IMG/VR virus record: IMGVR_UViG_2537562015_000012
Source of the DNA: a virus
Taxonomy: Duplodnaviria; Heunggongvirae; Uroviricota; Caudoviricetes
DNA: 18,580 nucleotides
Direction: 5' to 3' (one strand)
Below are positions 1-6,000 of the stretch, one piece after another (positions within the stretch are counted from its first letter, which is position 1; each line of letters begins with the position of its first letter). The position numbers were made by a program.

Positions 1-3000
1 ATGCCAAAACTCACAGATATGCAGATCCGCGCATGGATAAAGGCGGGAGACAGATTTGATGGCAAGGCAGACGGCAACGGCCTTTATATTTGCTACCCCA
101 AAAACTACACAGTCCCGTTCTGGCGATTCCGATATAAGCTCGCAGGAAAACAGCGGGCTATGGTTATCGGCTCTTACTCCGAACTGTCACTATCAAAAGC
201 CAGAGAAACAGCAAAAGAGCTGTCAGCCAGAGTTGCTCTTGGCTATGACGTAGCAGCAGAAAAACAGGAACGAAAAGCTGAAGCACTGGCAAAAATGGAG
301 GCTGAGAAAAACGCCATGCGCGTTTCAGATCTGGCCGCCGAATACTTCGAGCGACAGATACTTCCGAGATGGAAACATCCCGATATCCTTCGCCGGAGAA
401 TTGATAAGGATATTAACCCCTGCATTGGGCATATGAAGGTAGAGGACGTTAAGCCACGTCACATTGACGACATGTTAAAAGGTATCGTTGACCGAGGAGC
501 ACCAACGATAGCAACAGATGTATTACGCTGGACACGCCGTATCTTTGACTATGGGATAAAACGCCACGCTCTGGAGATAAACCCTTGTTCAGCGTTTGAA
601 GTATCTGATGCTGGTGGTAAAGAGGTTTCCCGCGACCGTTGGCTAACTCGCGATGAGCTTATCAGGCTATTCGAGGCTATGCGCACCGCAAAAGGATTCA
701 GCCGCCAGAACGAACTGACATTTAAGCTATTGCTGGCACTATGCGTTCGTAAGATGGAGTTATGCGCCGCACGATGGGAAGAGTTTGATTTAGATGGTGC
801 GGTATGGCATTTGCCGGAAGAACGCAGCAAAAACGGAGACCCTATTGATATACCTCTACCTTCCCCAGCCGTTGAATGGTTGAGAGAGCTACACACCTTT
901 TCATGTAATAGCGCATGGGTGCTTCCGGCCAGGAAGATGCAAAACAGAATGATCCCACATATTCAGGAAAGCACTTTACCCGTAGCACTGGCTAAGGTTC
1001 GCGCCGAAATGCCGGATGTGCCTAATTTCACGATTCACGACTTCCGACGCACCGCACGTACTCATTTAGCAGCATTGGGTGTTGATCCTGTCGTGGCGGA
1101 ACGATGCCTCAATCATCGCATTAAGGGCGTAGAGGGGATTTATAACCGTCATCAGTATTTTGATGAGCGTAAAGCAGCACTGGCACAGTGGGCAGATCTG
1201 CTGGTGGCACTGGAAAGCGGGAAAGACTACAACGTAACGCCATTCGATAAAGCCCGGAGGCAAATGTGAACAACATCTTGAGAAAATCGCCAATCGAACG
1301 GCTTTGTTCATCTGTATCGATTACCCCTCATGAAATGGCTGTGGCCTTGGCTGGCCTAAACCCATCTATGCGCATTAGCGATGTGCCTGAGGAAAATTTC
1401 GAATATGTCGATTTTGTCAGAACTCATCTTGCCAGAGCTATCAAGGTGTACAGAGGTGAAAAAACTAGTAAAGATGAGCCTTGCCATGCCCTTGATATTT
1501 TCTTAGCTTCTTACCCATTTATTGACACAAATACACCAGAAATAATTGTTCAGAAAATATCAGAAGCGATTGATGATTTGCGTGGCACCAAGGGCTGGGA
1601 AGAAAAAGCCCGAAACCTTGGAGGACTCCAGTTAGTAAACTACATCAAAGAAACCAACCGCAGCGGACGTGGGCAGCATAGAAAGCAGGATGAGGAAAAC
1701 GGGACAATGAAAATGATGGGGTTGATAGTACATCTGCTGATAAAAAAATCAGGCTCATCTTCCTACATCCAAAATGGGAAACCTAATCGCACAGCTATAT
1801 ACCGTGACATAGAAACCTTAATCAAGGATGAAGGGATATCCCATAAAGGAATAGCAAAAGCCACATTCCTAGAAAAAATCTCACGGGCTTTATTAGCTGT
1901 CCACGATCTCGACTAATCACTTTTCACGCCCCTCCAAAGCAATGGCGGGGCATTACCTGTTTACCCATCTCCACCAGCATAGATAATTCTATGCCTAGCC
2001 ATTGCTATATCTGTTCGGCTTAGTTCATCTGTAATCACCCCATCTCTAAAAGATACGCCAGCTATCATTAGCCATTTTAAGCCATCATGAGCCATTATAA
2101 ACCGACTCAACCAATTGAATAATAAAAGATAAAAAGAAATGTAAAAACATGATGAATGACGATGAAAGATATAACTCTTTGATAAAACAATGATTTTTTA
2201 AACTGGTAACTAATTGAAAATAAAGAAAATAATTATCCCACCTGCATTTGCAATCTTTCAGTGGATCGGTATTTTTTCAATAGATTTATAATTTCTTTCA
2301 ATAGATTCTAGTCTTAATAGAAATACTGTATGGGCAACCACTAAACTTTAAGTAACTTCATGAGCTATCAGAGAGGTTACTAGAGACATGACAGTACACA
2401 AGCCAGCATCATCAGCTATCCCAACAACTGGATACATCCGTCGCTTTCGCATGCCGGAATTGCTAGGTGTTTCACTGCCTACTATTGATAGATGGGTTAA
2501 AAATGGCACTCTTCCACGCCCAGTGAAGCTAACAGATAACGTGACTGCGTTTGATGCGGTGGAAATTAATAACTGGCTGGCAGAACGCCGCGGGAAGGTG
2601 GCCTGATGGAAAAGAAAAACCGCCCATTACAGGCGGCTAATTCAGATATTCGCGTATCTGATATTACGCCCCTTACAAAATCCCTTCAAGCACCAAAGCG
2701 CACACCGAAAAAGCATCGTGCCCGAGTCTATATGCTGCGTACTGGTATAGAGGGATGGACAGAAAATGACATTCTTCGCTACTGCCGTCTGTCTTCTGGT
2801 CGTAACTATGCAACAGAGTTAGAACGCCAGCTTGGAATCACTCTGGAGCGTATCGACGAAAAGAATCCTGATGGTATCGGAACACACCTTCGCTACCGTT
2901 TCTCCTGCCGTGGTGATGTTCTGAAAGTGATCACTCATGTTAACCATCTTGCGAACATAAATGATCACAACGGACTTTCTCAGCAGGAAATTGCCGACAT

Positions 3001-6000
3001 TCTGAAACTCTACCCGGACGCGTTTAACGCCGCCTAACGGAGACTAAAAATGAACATCGAAAAAAGCAGATTAATTTCTGAGGCCGCCCCTCATCTGAAC
3101 GCCTCTCTGGGCACAATTAACGGTAATGAATTTGCCGCAATTGTCCCGGTTATTTCTGGTCATATAGGCGGGCGTGAAACCAATATTGTTAGCGCAAAAG
3201 CGTTACACAAAGCGTTGGGCGTGGGAAAAGACTTCTCTACATGGATCACTGATCGCATCTCTGAATATGACTTCACCATTGGGCACGATTACTCAGTCCA
3301 TAAAACAATTTCCCCAAATTTGGGGAAAAGCCCGAATGACGCGGCTTACAGCAAGATTAAGCAGTCTGGCAGACCCGGCAAAGACTATCTGTTAAGTGTC
3401 GGAATGGCGAAAGAACTGGCAATGATCGAACGCAATGATCAGGGTCGCGCTATCCGCCGTTATTTCATCCAGTGCGAGAAAGAATTACAGCGTAGCGTGC
3501 CTGAAATCGCCGCCCGCTATCGTCGCCAGCTAAAAGCCCGTATCAGTGCCGCAAACAACTTCAAGCCAATGTGCGATGCGCTGAATATGGCCCGTGCCGA
3601 GATGGGGAAAACGACGCAGCAACACCACTACACAAACGAGAGCAATATGATTTCTCGTATCGTTCTTGGTGGGCTAACTGCTAAGCAGTGGGCGCGGATA
3701 AATGGCTATTCTGGCGAACCTCGCGACCATATGAACGCAGAACAGCTTGAGCACCTCTCATATCTCGAAAGCACCAATATCACGTTAATTGATATGGGCA
3801 TGGAATATGAGCAGCGCAAAGGAGAACTCACCCGCCTGTCGCAACGCTGGCTCGCCAAGCGTCTGGAGGCGGTCCATGTTTAAGCCGACAGGAACACCAC
3901 AACCTCAAAAACGCTACAAAGATGCCCACGGAGCACTCGTTACTGTCGAAAGCGTGTCTCACAACCGAGTGACGTTTTATCGCGACGGGTATCAATCGCC
4001 ATGCGTACAACCGCTGGCACGTTTCATGAAGGAGTTCGCGGAGGTTAACAAATGCTAACCGCCCAGAAGAAGATATTTTCACTGGCTGGTATGTCGCCAA
4101 AATCCAGCAATATGACAGCAAAGTCAGACATTAATACAGCAGATACAAGCAAAGTTTATCATTTGCTGGTGGTAGGAGCGGATGCCTTAACTATGTCAGA
4201 AATTACGGTCGATGGTGTTAGCGTTGAGAAGGTCAGCGGCTATGCCAGAGAATTTCTGGTCGTAGATGGCTTTCTCTGCTCGTGTAGTGACTCCACAAAA
4301 ACCTTCGTCCACGCGCGTGACGTTAACGAAATGAGCGCGATGTACTGTGCTTCTGGTTCTTCCAATAGTGAGTTTTCGGAGTCCATAAAAAAGAGCTTGC
4401 CGTTATGCGGCAACACGGTTTATGGTTATAAGGCACCTCATAAAACGGGTGCCGGGATTGGCGTCCTAAAAATTCTGAAGGCGACATATGACGCGCCAAG
4501 CGTCTTTTTTTATGTCGTAGGTCTGACTCACCCATTTTTTGGGCGTTGGTGTATAATCCAGCGCCTTTGTCAATCAATGGTGGCTCAGGCGGGGGCTTCT
4601 TCGGAAGCGCCGGTATCCTTCAGAGCCGGTTACGCCAACCCTGTCTGGGCTACCACCAGCGAAATTGGCGTTTCCGGTGGTAGCGTAACCTGCTATCTGA
4701 AGGAGGCTGCCACATGCTGGCTACTACCCCTACCCAAAAAACGCAATTTATCTGGATTATCGCCGCAGTTCGCCGCGATTGCCCGACAATTACCGCCAAA
4801 ATTCATCATATTGCTGCCGAGTCTGAACGCGATGCTCGCCGTTCTCTGGTGCGCGATCACGTCTGCTTTTTTGCTGGTCGTATCCGCATGGAGGTGGCAC
4901 ATGATTAAAACCTACGATGTGCATATGGATCCCCTCGAACGCACAAGCCAGATCATCACACTGACAGAAGTGATTAACGACATTCTGGTGAGCAACTCTC
5001 CCTCACGAGACGAAAGACTGAAGGCGTTACTCGCGATATTGGATCTCGCCGTTCGTGACGTTCATTTCCTGCTGGAAGGTGGCGAAATGCCAGTAAAAAC
5101 GGGGGCAACCAATGAATAACTCAATTAATACCCCTCGCCTTACGTCCGCACTTCAATTAATCGAGCAAGCAGCGGCTGTCCTGGTTGCTGTCAGTCTTTC
5201 GGCTGAAGAAATGGACGCTGCTGATGTCGTGGATGCGATTAAAGCGTGCTCATCTTTGGTTAACGATGCCCGTGCAGAGCTGGTAATTCTTGGTGGTGAA
5301 AAATGAATATCAACTTAATTTATCGTCATCCGTGTGAGCTGGAAATTGAATCATTGCTGGGGCGCGAAGAGCCATATCCAGACACATTCACTCCCGCAGA
5401 TTGCGCGACTGAACGGCTTACCAGAGCGCGCACAGGTCTGGTTCATGTGATGAATGAGATTATTCCCTCGGTGGGAGGGGAACAGGCGACAGTAATCAAT
5501 AGCTGGCTACAAAAAGTTACCTCCCTGATAGATATCAGTTTAATCGATGTGGAGAGTGCGAAATGACCAACATCCAGCTCATTGAAGCGCAATGTCGCAT
5601 CGAACAGGTTCAGACTGTTTTAGGGTTCTGGCTTGAAGGGGCCAGCCCAAGCAACAGAGACAAGTTAATGATTGGCGCGGTTATGTCACTGCTCAATGGC
5701 GTACCAGAAGCTATTCAGGAAGCGGACGAATTGTTGGGCAAATATGAGTTACAGAATCATTCAGGCGAGGCGAAACATGAATAATTTCTTAACTTTCCAT
5801 GCAGAAGCAACGCCTGGCGGCGTAAACATCATGTACCGCAGCAACGATGGCATGACAGAACGCGTTGAGGCCGTCTCATATATTGATGCCGTAAATCGTC
5901 TGGATGCCGGGGATTATGACGATAAACCAGATGAAGGTATGTCAATACATCTCGCTATTGCCGATGGCGGCAACCAGGGATATTTCGATTACACATCACA

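What the first reader, a model, noticed from the sequence alone, without database searches (positions are those of the whole stretch)
2388..3883. AlpA regulator, unknown gene and antirepressor form a tightly coupled regulatory module
Seen: alpA, a 143-aa unknown ORF (1-nt overlap with alpA) and an antirepressor-like gene are contiguous on one strand. Established: AlpA-type proteins control excision of P4-family elements, and antirepressors inactivate phage repressors. Inference: an antirepressor on an element lacking its own structural genes suggests it can derepress a resident helper prophage, which is a satellite-like strategy.
Basis: partly seen in the sequence, partly recalled or inferred. 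Interest (0 to 1): 0.4.

Follow-up and report, generated by a model that had tools for sequence, protein, structure and literature searches.

The report
Front end of a phage-satellite operon
The three genes are real and tightly linked, but they are only the first part of a long operon in a known kind of E. coli phage satellite (an EcCIMP1-like, P4-related island), and nothing shows that the 'antirepressor' wakes a helper prophage.

Summary
alpA (2388-2606), a 143-aa gene (2606-3037, 1-nt overlap) and an AntA-domain gene (3050-3883) lie on the + strand and evolve as coding sequence. The alpA/143-aa overlap recurs in 48 of 52 related loci.

The window is a ~17-kb island between yicC and dinD in E. 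coli. Its 143-aa/AntA/DUF4222 block is about 97-100% identical in protein to that of EcCIMP1, a published satellite mobilised by the P22-like phage Kapi1.

The coupling does not stop at 3883. It continues through DUF4222 and an 'Ash'/P4-eta-like ORF that contains isrK-like and C4-type RNAs, then icd, small ORFs and a primase.

The 143-aa protein is a satellite-specific winged-helix protein. The AntA protein has the AntA N-domain but no KilAC or P22-Ant C-domain, and its model resembles the DNA-binding protein DdrC. Its slot holds Bro-N or Rha proteins in other loci.

Satellite identity is supported. Helper derepression is untested and weakly contradicted: deleting EcCIMP1 changed neither Kapi1 titres nor its CI reporter. 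This organisation was published in 2023 and 2025, so interest is low.

The parts
1..1269 (+). Tyrosine integrase (integration zone). The window starts at its ATG.
   Evidence: Arm-DNA-bind_3, Phage_int_M and Phage_integrase domains. RefSeq context places it between yicC and dinD.
1917..2387 (+). AT-rich intergenic region upstream of alpA, the presumed helper-responsive promoter/operator region. It holds TTTCAATAGAT-type direct repeats at about 21-nt spacing (2254-2325).
   Evidence: GC 0.34. Repeats D3 and D5. The repeats are conserved in L012 and L018. A promoter function is inferred from the EcCIMP1 alpA-lux data.
2388..2606 (+). alpA: an AlpA/Vis-type HTH regulator/excisionase and the first cistron of the operon.
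   Evidence: PF05930 at 26.4 bits, cut-off 21. 32% identity to P4 Vis, E 2e-5. Third-position substitution fraction 0.71.
2606..3037 (+). 143-aa satellite-specific winged-helix protein (RefSeq name 'PM1773 family protein'), translationally coupled to alpA.
3050..3883 (+). AntA-domain Bro-network protein ('antirepressor' by annotation): an N-terminal AntA domain plus a helical C-terminal domain of unknown family.
3876..4058 (+). DUF4222 small protein; its start overlaps the antA stop by 8 nt.
   Evidence: PF13973 E 6e-25. Overlap ATGTTTAA. Third-position substitution fraction 0.61-0.67.
4052..5119 (+). 'Ash family' ORF, the homologue of the P4 eta/kil/cI region. It is an open frame running across the immunity RNAs, coupled to DUF4222 by a 7-nt overlap.
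   Evidence: Phage_ASH E 6e-34 over aa 124-232. No third-position bias in this frame. A long ORF spanning isrK and C4 is kept in 22 of 22 loci. P4 has the same arrangement.
4433..4510 (+). isrK-like RNA element (P4 seqA-type) ending in an intrinsic terminator.
   Evidence: RF01394 at 60.5 bits, cut-off 50. Terminator GACGCGCCAAGCGTC followed by T7. Contains UCUGAAGG, complementary to the C4 loop.
4573..4660 (+). C4/CI-type antisense immunity RNA, with a TATAAT -10 box at 4552-4557.
   Evidence: RF01695 at 79.9 bits, cut-off 45. Also found in EcCIMP1, L007, L021 and P4.
4683..4704 (+). Bipartite target of the C4-type RNA (GCGUAACC ... UCUGAAGGA) over the icd ribosome-binding site.
   Evidence: 8-nt and 9-nt complementarity to C4 nt 56-63 and 44-52. 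The icd SD GAAGGAGG and the ATG at 4714 follow.
4714..4908 (+). icd-like gene, the first cistron after the RNA checkpoint.
   Evidence: RefSeq names the EcCIMP1 copy an Icd-like protein. Third-position substitution fraction 0.65. 41% identity to the C-half of P4 'cI orf137'.
5112..8743 (+). Overlapping small ORFs (5112-5306, 5303-5566, 5563-5784, 5777-6379) followed by the primase/DUF5906 replication gene (6392-8743).
   Evidence: ORF coordinates. Zn_Ribbon_Prim, Toprim_3 and DUF5906 domains. 34% identity to P4 alpha.
10647..14083 (+). Late zone: P22 gp20- and gp16-type ejection protein genes captured from a Kapi1-like phage. The second gene is cut by IS1 (14079-14846).
   Evidence: Inj_translocase E 2.5e-73. 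phrog_917 and phrog_770. 90% nucleotide identity to Kapi1. IS1 transposase.
17449..17460 (.). Candidate right-end att core GGTGTACATAAT. The same 12-mer lies 69 nt upstream of int in strain E54.
   Evidence: It is the longest exact repeat between the two flanks; about 0.01 such matches are expected by chance.

Best explanation
The three genes are the first cistrons of one long, translationally coupled operon. That operon belongs to a ~17-kb phage satellite inserted between yicC and dinD: a Gram-negative PICI of the EcCIMP1 lineage with a P4-type immunity and replication backbone.

Proposed working, step by step:

1. (Inferred from EcCIMP1.) Induction of a P22-like helper switches on the promoter in the AT-rich region upstream of alpA. 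AlpA reinforces its own expression and is needed for excision.

2. (Shown by sequence.) Ribosomes pass from alpA into the 143-aa gene (1-nt overlap), antA (12-nt gap with a Shine-Dalgarno sequence), DUF4222 (8-nt overlap) and an eta/'Ash'-like ORF (7-nt overlap). That ORF runs through an isrK/seqA-like terminator element and a C4/CI-type RNA gene, and the chain continues into icd, small ORFs and the primase.

3. (Inferred from P4 and P1.) In the quiescent island the C4-type RNA, made from its own promoter, pairs with the icd ribosome-binding site and the seqA-like site. This keeps the replication genes off. Transcripts that start at alpA are translated across this region and so escape the block.

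4. (Inferred.) The 143-aa protein is a winged-helix DNA-binding partner of AlpA.

5. (Inferred.) The AntA protein is a dimeric DNA-binding member of the Bro network, sitting in an exchangeable slot. It most likely acts after helper induction as a helper-specific or island-specific transcription or DNA regulator, not as the trigger that derepresses the helper.
For: Identity of the element. The window is 100% identical to many E. coli chromosomes, and the island lies between yicC and dinD. EcCIMP1 has the same gene order: its 143-aa protein differs by one residue, its AntA is about 97% identical and its DUF4222 is identical. EcCIMP1 is experimentally helper-induced, alpA-dependent and transduced by Kapi1.

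Conserved order. 65 loci from many genera show int - alpA - 143-aa - Bro-network slot - DUF4222 - icd - primase - PerC. The alpA/143-aa overlap is conserved in 48 of 52.

Coupling chain. It follows from the ORF coordinates and the sequence.

RNA checkpoint. The isrK and C4 matches exceed the Rfam cut-offs and also occur in EcCIMP1, L007, L021 and P4. There is a 17-nt bipartite complementarity to the icd RBS. An ORF spanning the RNAs is kept in 22 of 22 loci, yet it shows no codon-position bias. This matches the published P4 eta mechanism as summarised in PMC10111431.

Proteins. The 143-aa model is a confident wHTH. In the AntA model, DdrC is the only strong fold match. The slot holds AntA in 30 loci, and of 23 slot ORFs scanned from the AntA-less loci it holds Bro-N in 13 and Rha in 3. 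A satellite Bro-network protein, PLE CapR, is a proven DNA-binding repressor of helper genes.

Published frame. The four-zone model (Integration, Bro plus immunity RNAs, Replication, Late) fits the window gene for gene.
Against: No experiment exists on this island. Its AlpA and upstream region are of a different sequence type from EcCIMP1's, so helper-inducibility is an extrapolation.

The N-terminal half of the AntA model is low-confidence (pLDDT about 50-65). The DdrC match has low TM-scores (0.35-0.44). No DNA target is identified for either the AntA protein or the 143-aa protein.

The translation-dependent bypass of termination is taken from P4 and not tested here. C4 was detected in only 22 of the 65 loci, so the RNA checkpoint is not universal in the family.

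An antirepressor activity of AntA is not excluded by any of these data.
Confidence: 0.6

Rival explanations
1. The AntA protein is a true antirepressor that binds the repressor of a resident P22-like or lambdoid helper prophage. The satellite thereby induces its own helper, as P4 epsilon does with P2.
For: AntA domain, E 1e-21. The best PHROG matches are named anti-repressor Ant. The N-domain is shared with many phage genes annotated as antirepressors. P4 shows that a satellite can encode a helper derepression protein. A slot that swaps between AntA, Bro-N and Rha proteins is what helper-specific effectors would look like.
Against: No ANT/KilAC or P22_AR_C domain, even at E<=10. No similarity to either Kapi1 antirepressor or to P4 epsilon. 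In EcCIMP1 the operon promoter fires only after helper induction, and deleting the island altered neither Kapi1 titres nor CI-lux. No LexA box or upstream antisense control of the kind known for ant genes. The fold match is to a DNA-binding protein. Some related loci have no Bro-network ORF in this slot.
Confidence: 0.2
2. The AntA-type protein is mainly an interference or defence factor. It might be the component behind the EcCIMP1-dependent superinfection immunity against the helper, acting on incoming phage DNA or transcription.
For: The C-domain matches the PADLOC defence candidate PDC-S22 at E 4e-11. EcCIMP1 adds superinfection immunity in Kapi1 lysogens, and that study found no known defence system to explain it. 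The DdrC-like fold binds DNA. CapR is a precedent.
Against: PDC-S22 is only a candidate defined by genomic association. Because satellites sit in defence hotspots, the association may be circular. No experiment links antA to the immunity phenotype. If the alpA operon is silent in uninduced lysogens, as the EcCIMP1 reporter suggests, a product of it could not protect them.
Confidence: 0.12
3. The region is a decayed prophage remnant, and the three genes are leftovers with no coordinated function.
For: P22-type ejection genes, one of them truncated by IS1. No capsid, terminase or lysis genes. EcCIMP1 was itself first called an incomplete prophage.
Against: All three genes show purifying selection. 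The gene order and the overlaps are conserved across 65 species-level loci. The near-identical module in EcCIMP1 belongs to a functional, transducible island. About 11% of complete E. coli genomes carry the block.
Confidence: 0.03

Closest known systems
EcCIMP1, the PICI of E. coli MP1 with helper phage vB_EcoP_Kapi1 (Pick, Stadel & Raivio, ISME J 2025, PMC11773190)
   Same: It has the same order: int - alpA - 143-aa - AntA - DUF4222 - Ash/icd - small ORFs - primase - P22-type ejection genes - PerC. The 143-aa protein differs by 1 aa, AntA is about 97% identical and DUF4222 is identical. isrK and C4 RNAs are present.
   Different: The integrase and attachment site differ: tRNA-Thr near proA in EcCIMP1 versus yicC-dinD here. 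The AlpA sequence type is unrelated, with the mosaic breakpoint 10 nt before the alpA stop. The primase differs: TOPRIM+DUF927 versus Toprim+DUF5906. EcCIMP1 has a fuller set of ejection genes and a second alpA. This island has an extra 216-aa ORF and an IS1.
Four-zone organisation of Gram-negative PICIs (Mageeney et al., NAR Genom Bioinform 2023, PMC10111431)
   Same: Integration zone (int, AlpA), Bro zone (Bro-network proteins including AntA and Phage_ASH, plus C4/isrK immunity RNAs), Replication zone, and a Late zone of captured helper late genes. Every zone is present in this order.
   Different: The passages of that paper read here do not mention the 143-aa winged-helix gene coupled to alpA, nor this integration site.
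Satellite phage P4, left operon (vis - eta/kil/cI - epsilon - orf151 - orf106 - alpha)
   Same: A Vis/AlpA-type first gene (32% identity). isrK/seqA-like and C4/CI RNAs lie inside a long ORF that ends overlapping the next gene. There is an Icd/Kil-like segment and an alpha-type primase (34% identity over 335 aa).
   Different: Here three genes (143-aa, AntA, DUF4222) are inserted between alpA and the eta-like ORF. There is no epsilon, sid, delta or psu homologue. The helper type is P22-like, not P2-like.
P1/P7 immI module (c4 RNA - icd - ant)
   Same: A C4 RNA above the Rfam cut-off, with single-stranded segments complementary to the icd ribosome-binding site.
   Different: In P1 the antirepressor lies downstream of icd and is the regulated product. 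Here the AntA gene is upstream of the RNA, and replication genes follow icd. The P1 arrangement is stated from my own knowledge.
CapR of the Vibrio PLE satellite (Netter et al., NAR 2021, PMC8096241)
   Same: It is a satellite-encoded protein placed in the Bro network and shown to bind DNA and repress a helper operon. That makes it a working model for a non-antirepressor role of the slot protein.
   Different: No sequence relationship to the island's AntA protein was tested. The helper and host are different.

Membership tests
Gram-negative PICI (EcCIMP1-like) | Integrase followed by a co-oriented AlpA-family gene | tested here: met
Gram-negative PICI (EcCIMP1-like) | Bro zone: a Bro-network protein and/or C4/isrK immunity RNAs between alpA and the replication genes | tested here: met
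   AntA and Phage_ASH. isrK and C4 above their cut-offs.
Gram-negative PICI (EcCIMP1-like) | Its own primase/replication module, with no capsid, terminase or lysis genes | tested here: met
   Primase domains. Pfam and PHROG scans of the ORFs found no capsid, terminase or lysis genes; only ejection proteins were found.
Gram-negative PICI (EcCIMP1-like) | Discrete island flanked by att direct repeats | tested here: inconclusive
   A 12-bp repeat GGTGTACATAAT flanks the island in strain E54 and in the window. The empty site was not compared.
Gram-negative PICI (EcCIMP1-like) | Helper-dependent excision, replication and high-frequency transfer | not testable with these tools
   Shown only for EcCIMP1.
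P4-like satellite | sid, delta and psu capsid-redirection/late genes | tested here: not met
   BLASTP of the P4 proteins against the window's ORFs up to 9877 found no homologue. Pfam/PHROG scans covered the main ORFs across the rest of the window.
P4-like satellite | CI (C4-type) immunity RNA and seqA (isrK-type) site inside an eta-like ORF downstream of vis/alpA | tested here: met
P4-like satellite | Epsilon helper-derepression protein | tested here: not met
   No similarity of P4 epsilon to any window ORF.
Phage antirepressor (P22 Ant / KilAC type) | KilAC (PF03374) or P22_AR_C (PF10548) C-terminal domain | tested here: not met
   Absent at E<=10. Present in the helper-type phage's own Ant proteins.
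Phage antirepressor (P22 Ant / KilAC type) | N-terminal Bro-network domain (AntA, Bro-N or Rha) | tested here: met
   PF08346, E 1.2e-21.
Phage antirepressor (P22 Ant / KilAC type) | Binds and inactivates a phage repressor | not testable with these tools
   Indirect only: deletion of EcCIMP1 had no effect on Kapi1 titres or CI-lux.
Phage antirepressor (P22 Ant / KilAC type) | Tight negative control of the ant gene (LexA box, or antisense RNA/Arc-Mnt upstream) | tested here: not met
   No LexA box upstream of alpA or antA. The C4 RNA lies downstream of antA.
P1/P7 immI (c4-icd-ant) | C4 RNA with loops complementary to the icd RBS | tested here: met
P1/P7 immI (c4-icd-ant) | Antirepressor gene translationally coupled downstream of icd | tested here: not met
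   The genes downstream of icd are small ORFs and the primase. antA is upstream.

The most novel reading that the evidence does not exclude
The exchangeable Bro-network slot (AntA here, Bro-N or Rha elsewhere), placed directly after the AlpA/143-aa pair (which recurs with its 1-nt overlap in 48 of the 52 loci with a detectable AlpA), encodes the satellite's helper-specific effector. The AntA version is a new type of antirepressor that lacks KilAC and P22_AR_C domains. It would let a resident or incoming island trigger or accelerate induction of a P22-like prophage, making it the PICI counterpart of P4 epsilon. No PICI has yet been shown to induce its helper.
Probability: 0.15. Interest if true: 0.55.

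Novelty: new member of a known kind. Interest (0 to 1): 0.25.

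Why it matters
The result places a common block, present in about 11% of complete E. coli genomes, in a known framework. It is the front end of the helper-inducible operon of EcCIMP1-type satellites. Three practical points follow.

1. The label 'antirepressor' rests on the N-terminal domain alone and should not be read as a function.

2. The 143-aa winged-helix gene is coupled to alpA by a 1-nt overlap. The published alpA deletion phenotypes in EcCIMP1 could therefore partly reflect loss of downstream translation.

3. The 'Ash family protein' annotation hides a P4-type RNA immunity checkpoint (isrK/seqA-like plus C4/CI-like RNAs). 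This was not mentioned in the EcCIMP1 paper. It suggests how these islands keep replication off until a helper is induced.

None of this is a new principle. P4 and the four-zone PICI model already cover it.

Tried and rejected
1. Tailspike mimicry. Residues 101-141 of the 143-aa protein weakly resemble the P22 tailspike head-binding domain (PDB phmmer E 0.45-0.87; Pfam Head_binding E 0.094). I rejected this as probably chance. The E-values are not significant, the confident model is helical there, and the matching residues are not conserved in the family alignment.

2. Trans-acting C4 on the helper. The Kapi1 genome has no bipartite target, only scattered 8-9-mers at chance level.

3. SOS control. 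No LexA box lies near alpA or antA. The two perfect boxes are the host dinD promoter (17695-17710) and one at 10449-10464, and that count is compatible with chance.

4. P4 epsilon, orf151, orf106, sid, delta and psu homologues: none found.

5. Sequence searches of PDB gave nothing for AntA. NCBIfam has no model matching the 143-aa protein or AntA. The 143-aa protein has no phage homologue.

6. 'The Ash ORF is simply spurious.' The lack of codon bias first suggested this. I revised it after finding the ORF maintained in 22 of 22 loci and the P4 eta precedent.

7. Aligning the regions upstream of alpA across loci showed little conservation beyond about 40 nt of 5' UTR and a repeat motif shared with two loci.

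8. The Edwardsiella phage EPP-1 full-length AntA homologue (64% identity) sits in an uninformative context.

9. Technical: the first related-loci run with the wide alignment failed and was redone with a narrower one. L002 was at first not readable in the sandbox.

Full report
**Observation**

The window has three + strand ORFs exactly as described: 2388-2606 (72 aa), 2606-3037 (143 aa) and 3050-3883 (277 aa). The alpA stop and the start of the 143-aa ORF share one base (TGATG). antA follows after 12 nt, behind a GGAG Shine-Dalgarno sequence.

Pfam confirms AlpA (PF05930, 26.4 bits against a cut-off of 21) and an AntA domain (PF08346, E 1.2e-21, aa 47-129). PHROGs gives 'anti-repressor Ant' families down to E 5e-39. 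The 143-aa protein has no Pfam, PHROG or NCBIfam match. RefSeq calls it 'PM1773 family protein'.

All three genes evolve as coding sequence. Against related loci, the share of substitutions at third codon positions is 0.71 for alpA, 0.63 for the 143-aa core and 0.51-0.63 for antA.

**What the element is**

The window is 100% identical to many E. coli chromosomes, O6:H16 strains among them. In strain E54 the island lies between yicC and dinD. Its order is:

- integrase, a 216-aa ORF, alpA, the 143-aa gene, antA, DUF4222
- an 'ash family' ORF, three small ORFs, a phrog_1515 protein
- a Toprim/DUF5906 primase and two more ORFs
- P22 gp20- and gp16-type ejection proteins, a few minus-strand ORFs and a PerC-family gene

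A 12-bp direct repeat, GGTGTACATAAT, flanks the island. In the window an IS1 (14079-14846) truncates the gp16-like gene.

A literature search led to EcCIMP1, a PICI of E. coli MP1 (PMC11773190). The MP1 locus has the same gene order. Its 143-aa protein differs by one residue, its AntA is about 97% identical and its DUF4222 is identical.

EcCIMP1 excises only when the P22-like phage Kapi1 is present. It needs alpA and int, has a helper-inducible alpA promoter, and is transduced by Kapi1. That paper notes that the antirepressor, Ash protein and primase are strongly conserved among EcCIMP1-like elements. It did not test the antirepressor.

The window's ejection genes are about 90% nucleotide-identical to Kapi1. 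The window therefore holds an EcCIMP1-like satellite at a different attachment site, with a different integrase, AlpA type and primase.

**The coupling extends beyond the finding**

- DUF4222 (3876-4058) overlaps antA by 8 nt.
- The 355-aa 'Ash' ORF (4052-5119) overlaps DUF4222 by 7 nt.
- The next ORFs (5112-5306, 5303-5566, 5563-5784, 5777-6379) overlap one another by 4-8 nt.
- The primase starts 12 nt later.

**An RNA checkpoint inside the 'Ash' ORF**

Rfam finds an isrK-like element at 4433-4510 (60.5 bits, cut-off 50) that ends in an intrinsic terminator. It also finds a C4 antisense RNA at 4573-4660 (79.9 bits, cut-off 45). Both lie exactly under the Pfam Phage_ASH match. A TATAAT box sits at 4552-4557.

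Two single-stranded segments of the C4 RNA (nt 44-52 and 56-63) are complementary to 4696-4704 and 4683-4690. These sites lie over the ribosome-binding site of an icd-like gene (4714-4908). The first segment also matches 4474-4481 in the isrK-like element.

The same two RNAs occur in EcCIMP1, L007 and L021. They also occur in satellite P4, between vis and epsilon, inside a 214-aa ORF.

In the Ash frame there is no third-position bias (0.21-0.41). icd and DUF4222 show 0.65-0.67 in their own frames. Yet a 215-429-aa ORF spanning isrK and C4 is kept in all 22 loci where C4 was detected.

This is what the P4 eta mechanism predicts. Translation of eta from the upstream late promoter prevents CI/seqA-dependent termination, and eta is coupled to the alpA homologue (Forti et al. 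1999, as summarised in PMC10111431). I could not read the 1999 paper itself.

**Family context**

The 143-aa protein family has 611 clusters at 90% identity and 92 representatives at 50% identity. Where source names or loci are available, they come from Enterobacterales, Orbales and Aeromonadales. It has no phage homologue.

In 65 species-level loci the order is int - alpA - 143-aa - slot - DUF4222 - icd - small ORFs - primase - PerC.

- The 1-nt alpA/143-aa overlap is present in 48 of 52 loci, with two unrelated AlpA types.
- In E. coli, megablast matches to the module mostly begin 10 nt before the alpA stop. The integration module (int plus alpA) and the 143-aa/AntA block therefore recombine as units at that junction.
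- 596 of 5,426 complete E. coli genomes carry at least 80% of the block.
- The slot after the 143-aa gene holds a full AntA protein in 30 loci. Of 23 slot ORFs scanned from the AntA-less loci, 13 carry a Bro-N domain and 3 a Rha domain; some loci have no slot ORF.

This is the 'Bro zone' of the four-zone PICI organisation published in 2023. That paper also lists C4 and isrK hits and captured helper late genes. A 2026 survey likewise records BRO, AntA/AntB and Rha proteins in Enterobacter PICIs.

**The proteins**

Kapi1 encodes its own antirepressor-type proteins: Rha+ANT, and Bro-N+P22_AR_C next to Arc-type regulators. Neither resembles the island protein.

**Does it derepress a helper?**

Nothing here shows that it does, and several points argue against it as the main role:

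- Only the N-terminal domain is shared with characterised antirepressors.
- In EcCIMP1 the operon promoter responds to helper induction, not the other way round.
- Deleting EcCIMP1 changed neither the Kapi1 titre after mitomycin C nor Kapi1 CI-lux.
- There is no LexA box upstream.
- P4's derepressor epsilon sits downstream of the immunity RNA and has no homologue here.

The published experiments did not test AntA alone, island entry into a lysogen, or other helpers. I therefore keep this reading at about 0.2.

I favour a DNA-binding, helper- or island-directed regulator made after induction, by analogy with PLE CapR. A defence or interference role is a further possibility, given the unexplained EcCIMP1 superinfection immunity.

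**Verdict**

This is a correct observation of an ordinary, already described architecture. The island at yicC-dinD is a new member of a known kind. The most useful additions are:

- the deep conservation of the alpA/143-aa coupling
- the winged-helix nature of the 143-aa protein
- the exchangeable Bro-network slot
- the recognition that the 'Ash' ORF of these islands is the P4 eta/seqA/CI checkpoint

Noticed in passing
window 4052-5119: The RefSeq 'ash family protein' ORF overlies an isrK-like RNA, a C4-type RNA and an icd-like gene in another frame. It shows no codon-position bias, yet an ORF spanning the RNAs is kept in 22 of 22 related loci. It is the homologue of the P4 eta/kil/cI region.
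   Followed up: yes
window 14079-14846: An IS1 insertion truncates the gp16-like ejection gene to 698 aa here. The gene is 706 aa and intact in strain E54 (L001 30088-32205).
   Followed up: partly
window 10647-14083: The satellite carries P22 gp20/gp16-type ejection (virion) protein genes, about 90% nucleotide-identical to phage Kapi1. This fits capture of helper late genes. Only 2 of the 65 related loci have a gp20 homologue within reach of the fetched flank.
   Followed up: partly
window 2906-3028 (aa 101-141 of the 143-aa protein): Weak similarity to the P22 tailspike head-binding domain (PDB phmmer E 0.45; Pfam Head_binding E 0.094). The structure model is helical there, so this is probably chance. 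It is worth recording because the helper type is P22-like.
   Followed up: partly
window 3539-3847 (AntA aa 164-266): The C-terminal domain matches the PADLOC defence candidate PDC-S22 (E 3.9e-11). The EcCIMP1 paper reported no known defence system found with PADLOC or DefenseFinder.
   Followed up: no
window 2254-2325: Three to four TTTCAATAGAT-like direct repeats at about 21-nt spacing lie upstream of alpA. They are also present, with variant sequence, in L012 and L018. They are candidate operator sites for AlpA, the 143-aa protein or a helper factor.
   Followed up: partly
window 1990-2100: A run of AGCCAT(T/C)AT-like iterated motifs lies just downstream of the 216-aa ORF. Its function is unknown.
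   Followed up: no
L007 8700-8763; L028 8618-8685; L045 8011-8080: The Rfam int-alpA RNA motif (RF02996) lies between int and alpA in these relatives. It was not found in the window, where a 216-aa ORF (phrog_30524) occupies that space.
   Followed up: no
window 2596 (alpA 3' end): This is a mosaic breakpoint. Most E. coli matches to the module start 10 nt before the alpA stop, so int plus alpA and the 143-aa/AntA block are exchanged as separate units while the overlap is kept.
   Followed up: partly
window 10449-10464 and 17695-17710: Two perfect CTGT-N8-ACAG LexA-type boxes. The second is the host dinD promoter. The first lies just upstream of the ejection-protein genes and may be chance.
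   Followed up: no
window 16767-17054: A PerC-family ORF lies at the right end of the island, as in EcCIMP1, where the homologue repressed LEE expression.
   Followed up: no
L068 5926-6777 (Edwardsiella phage EPP-1): A bona fide phage carries a full-length homologue of the island AntA protein (64% identity), in a block of unannotated genes near the end of the genome record.
   Followed up: partly
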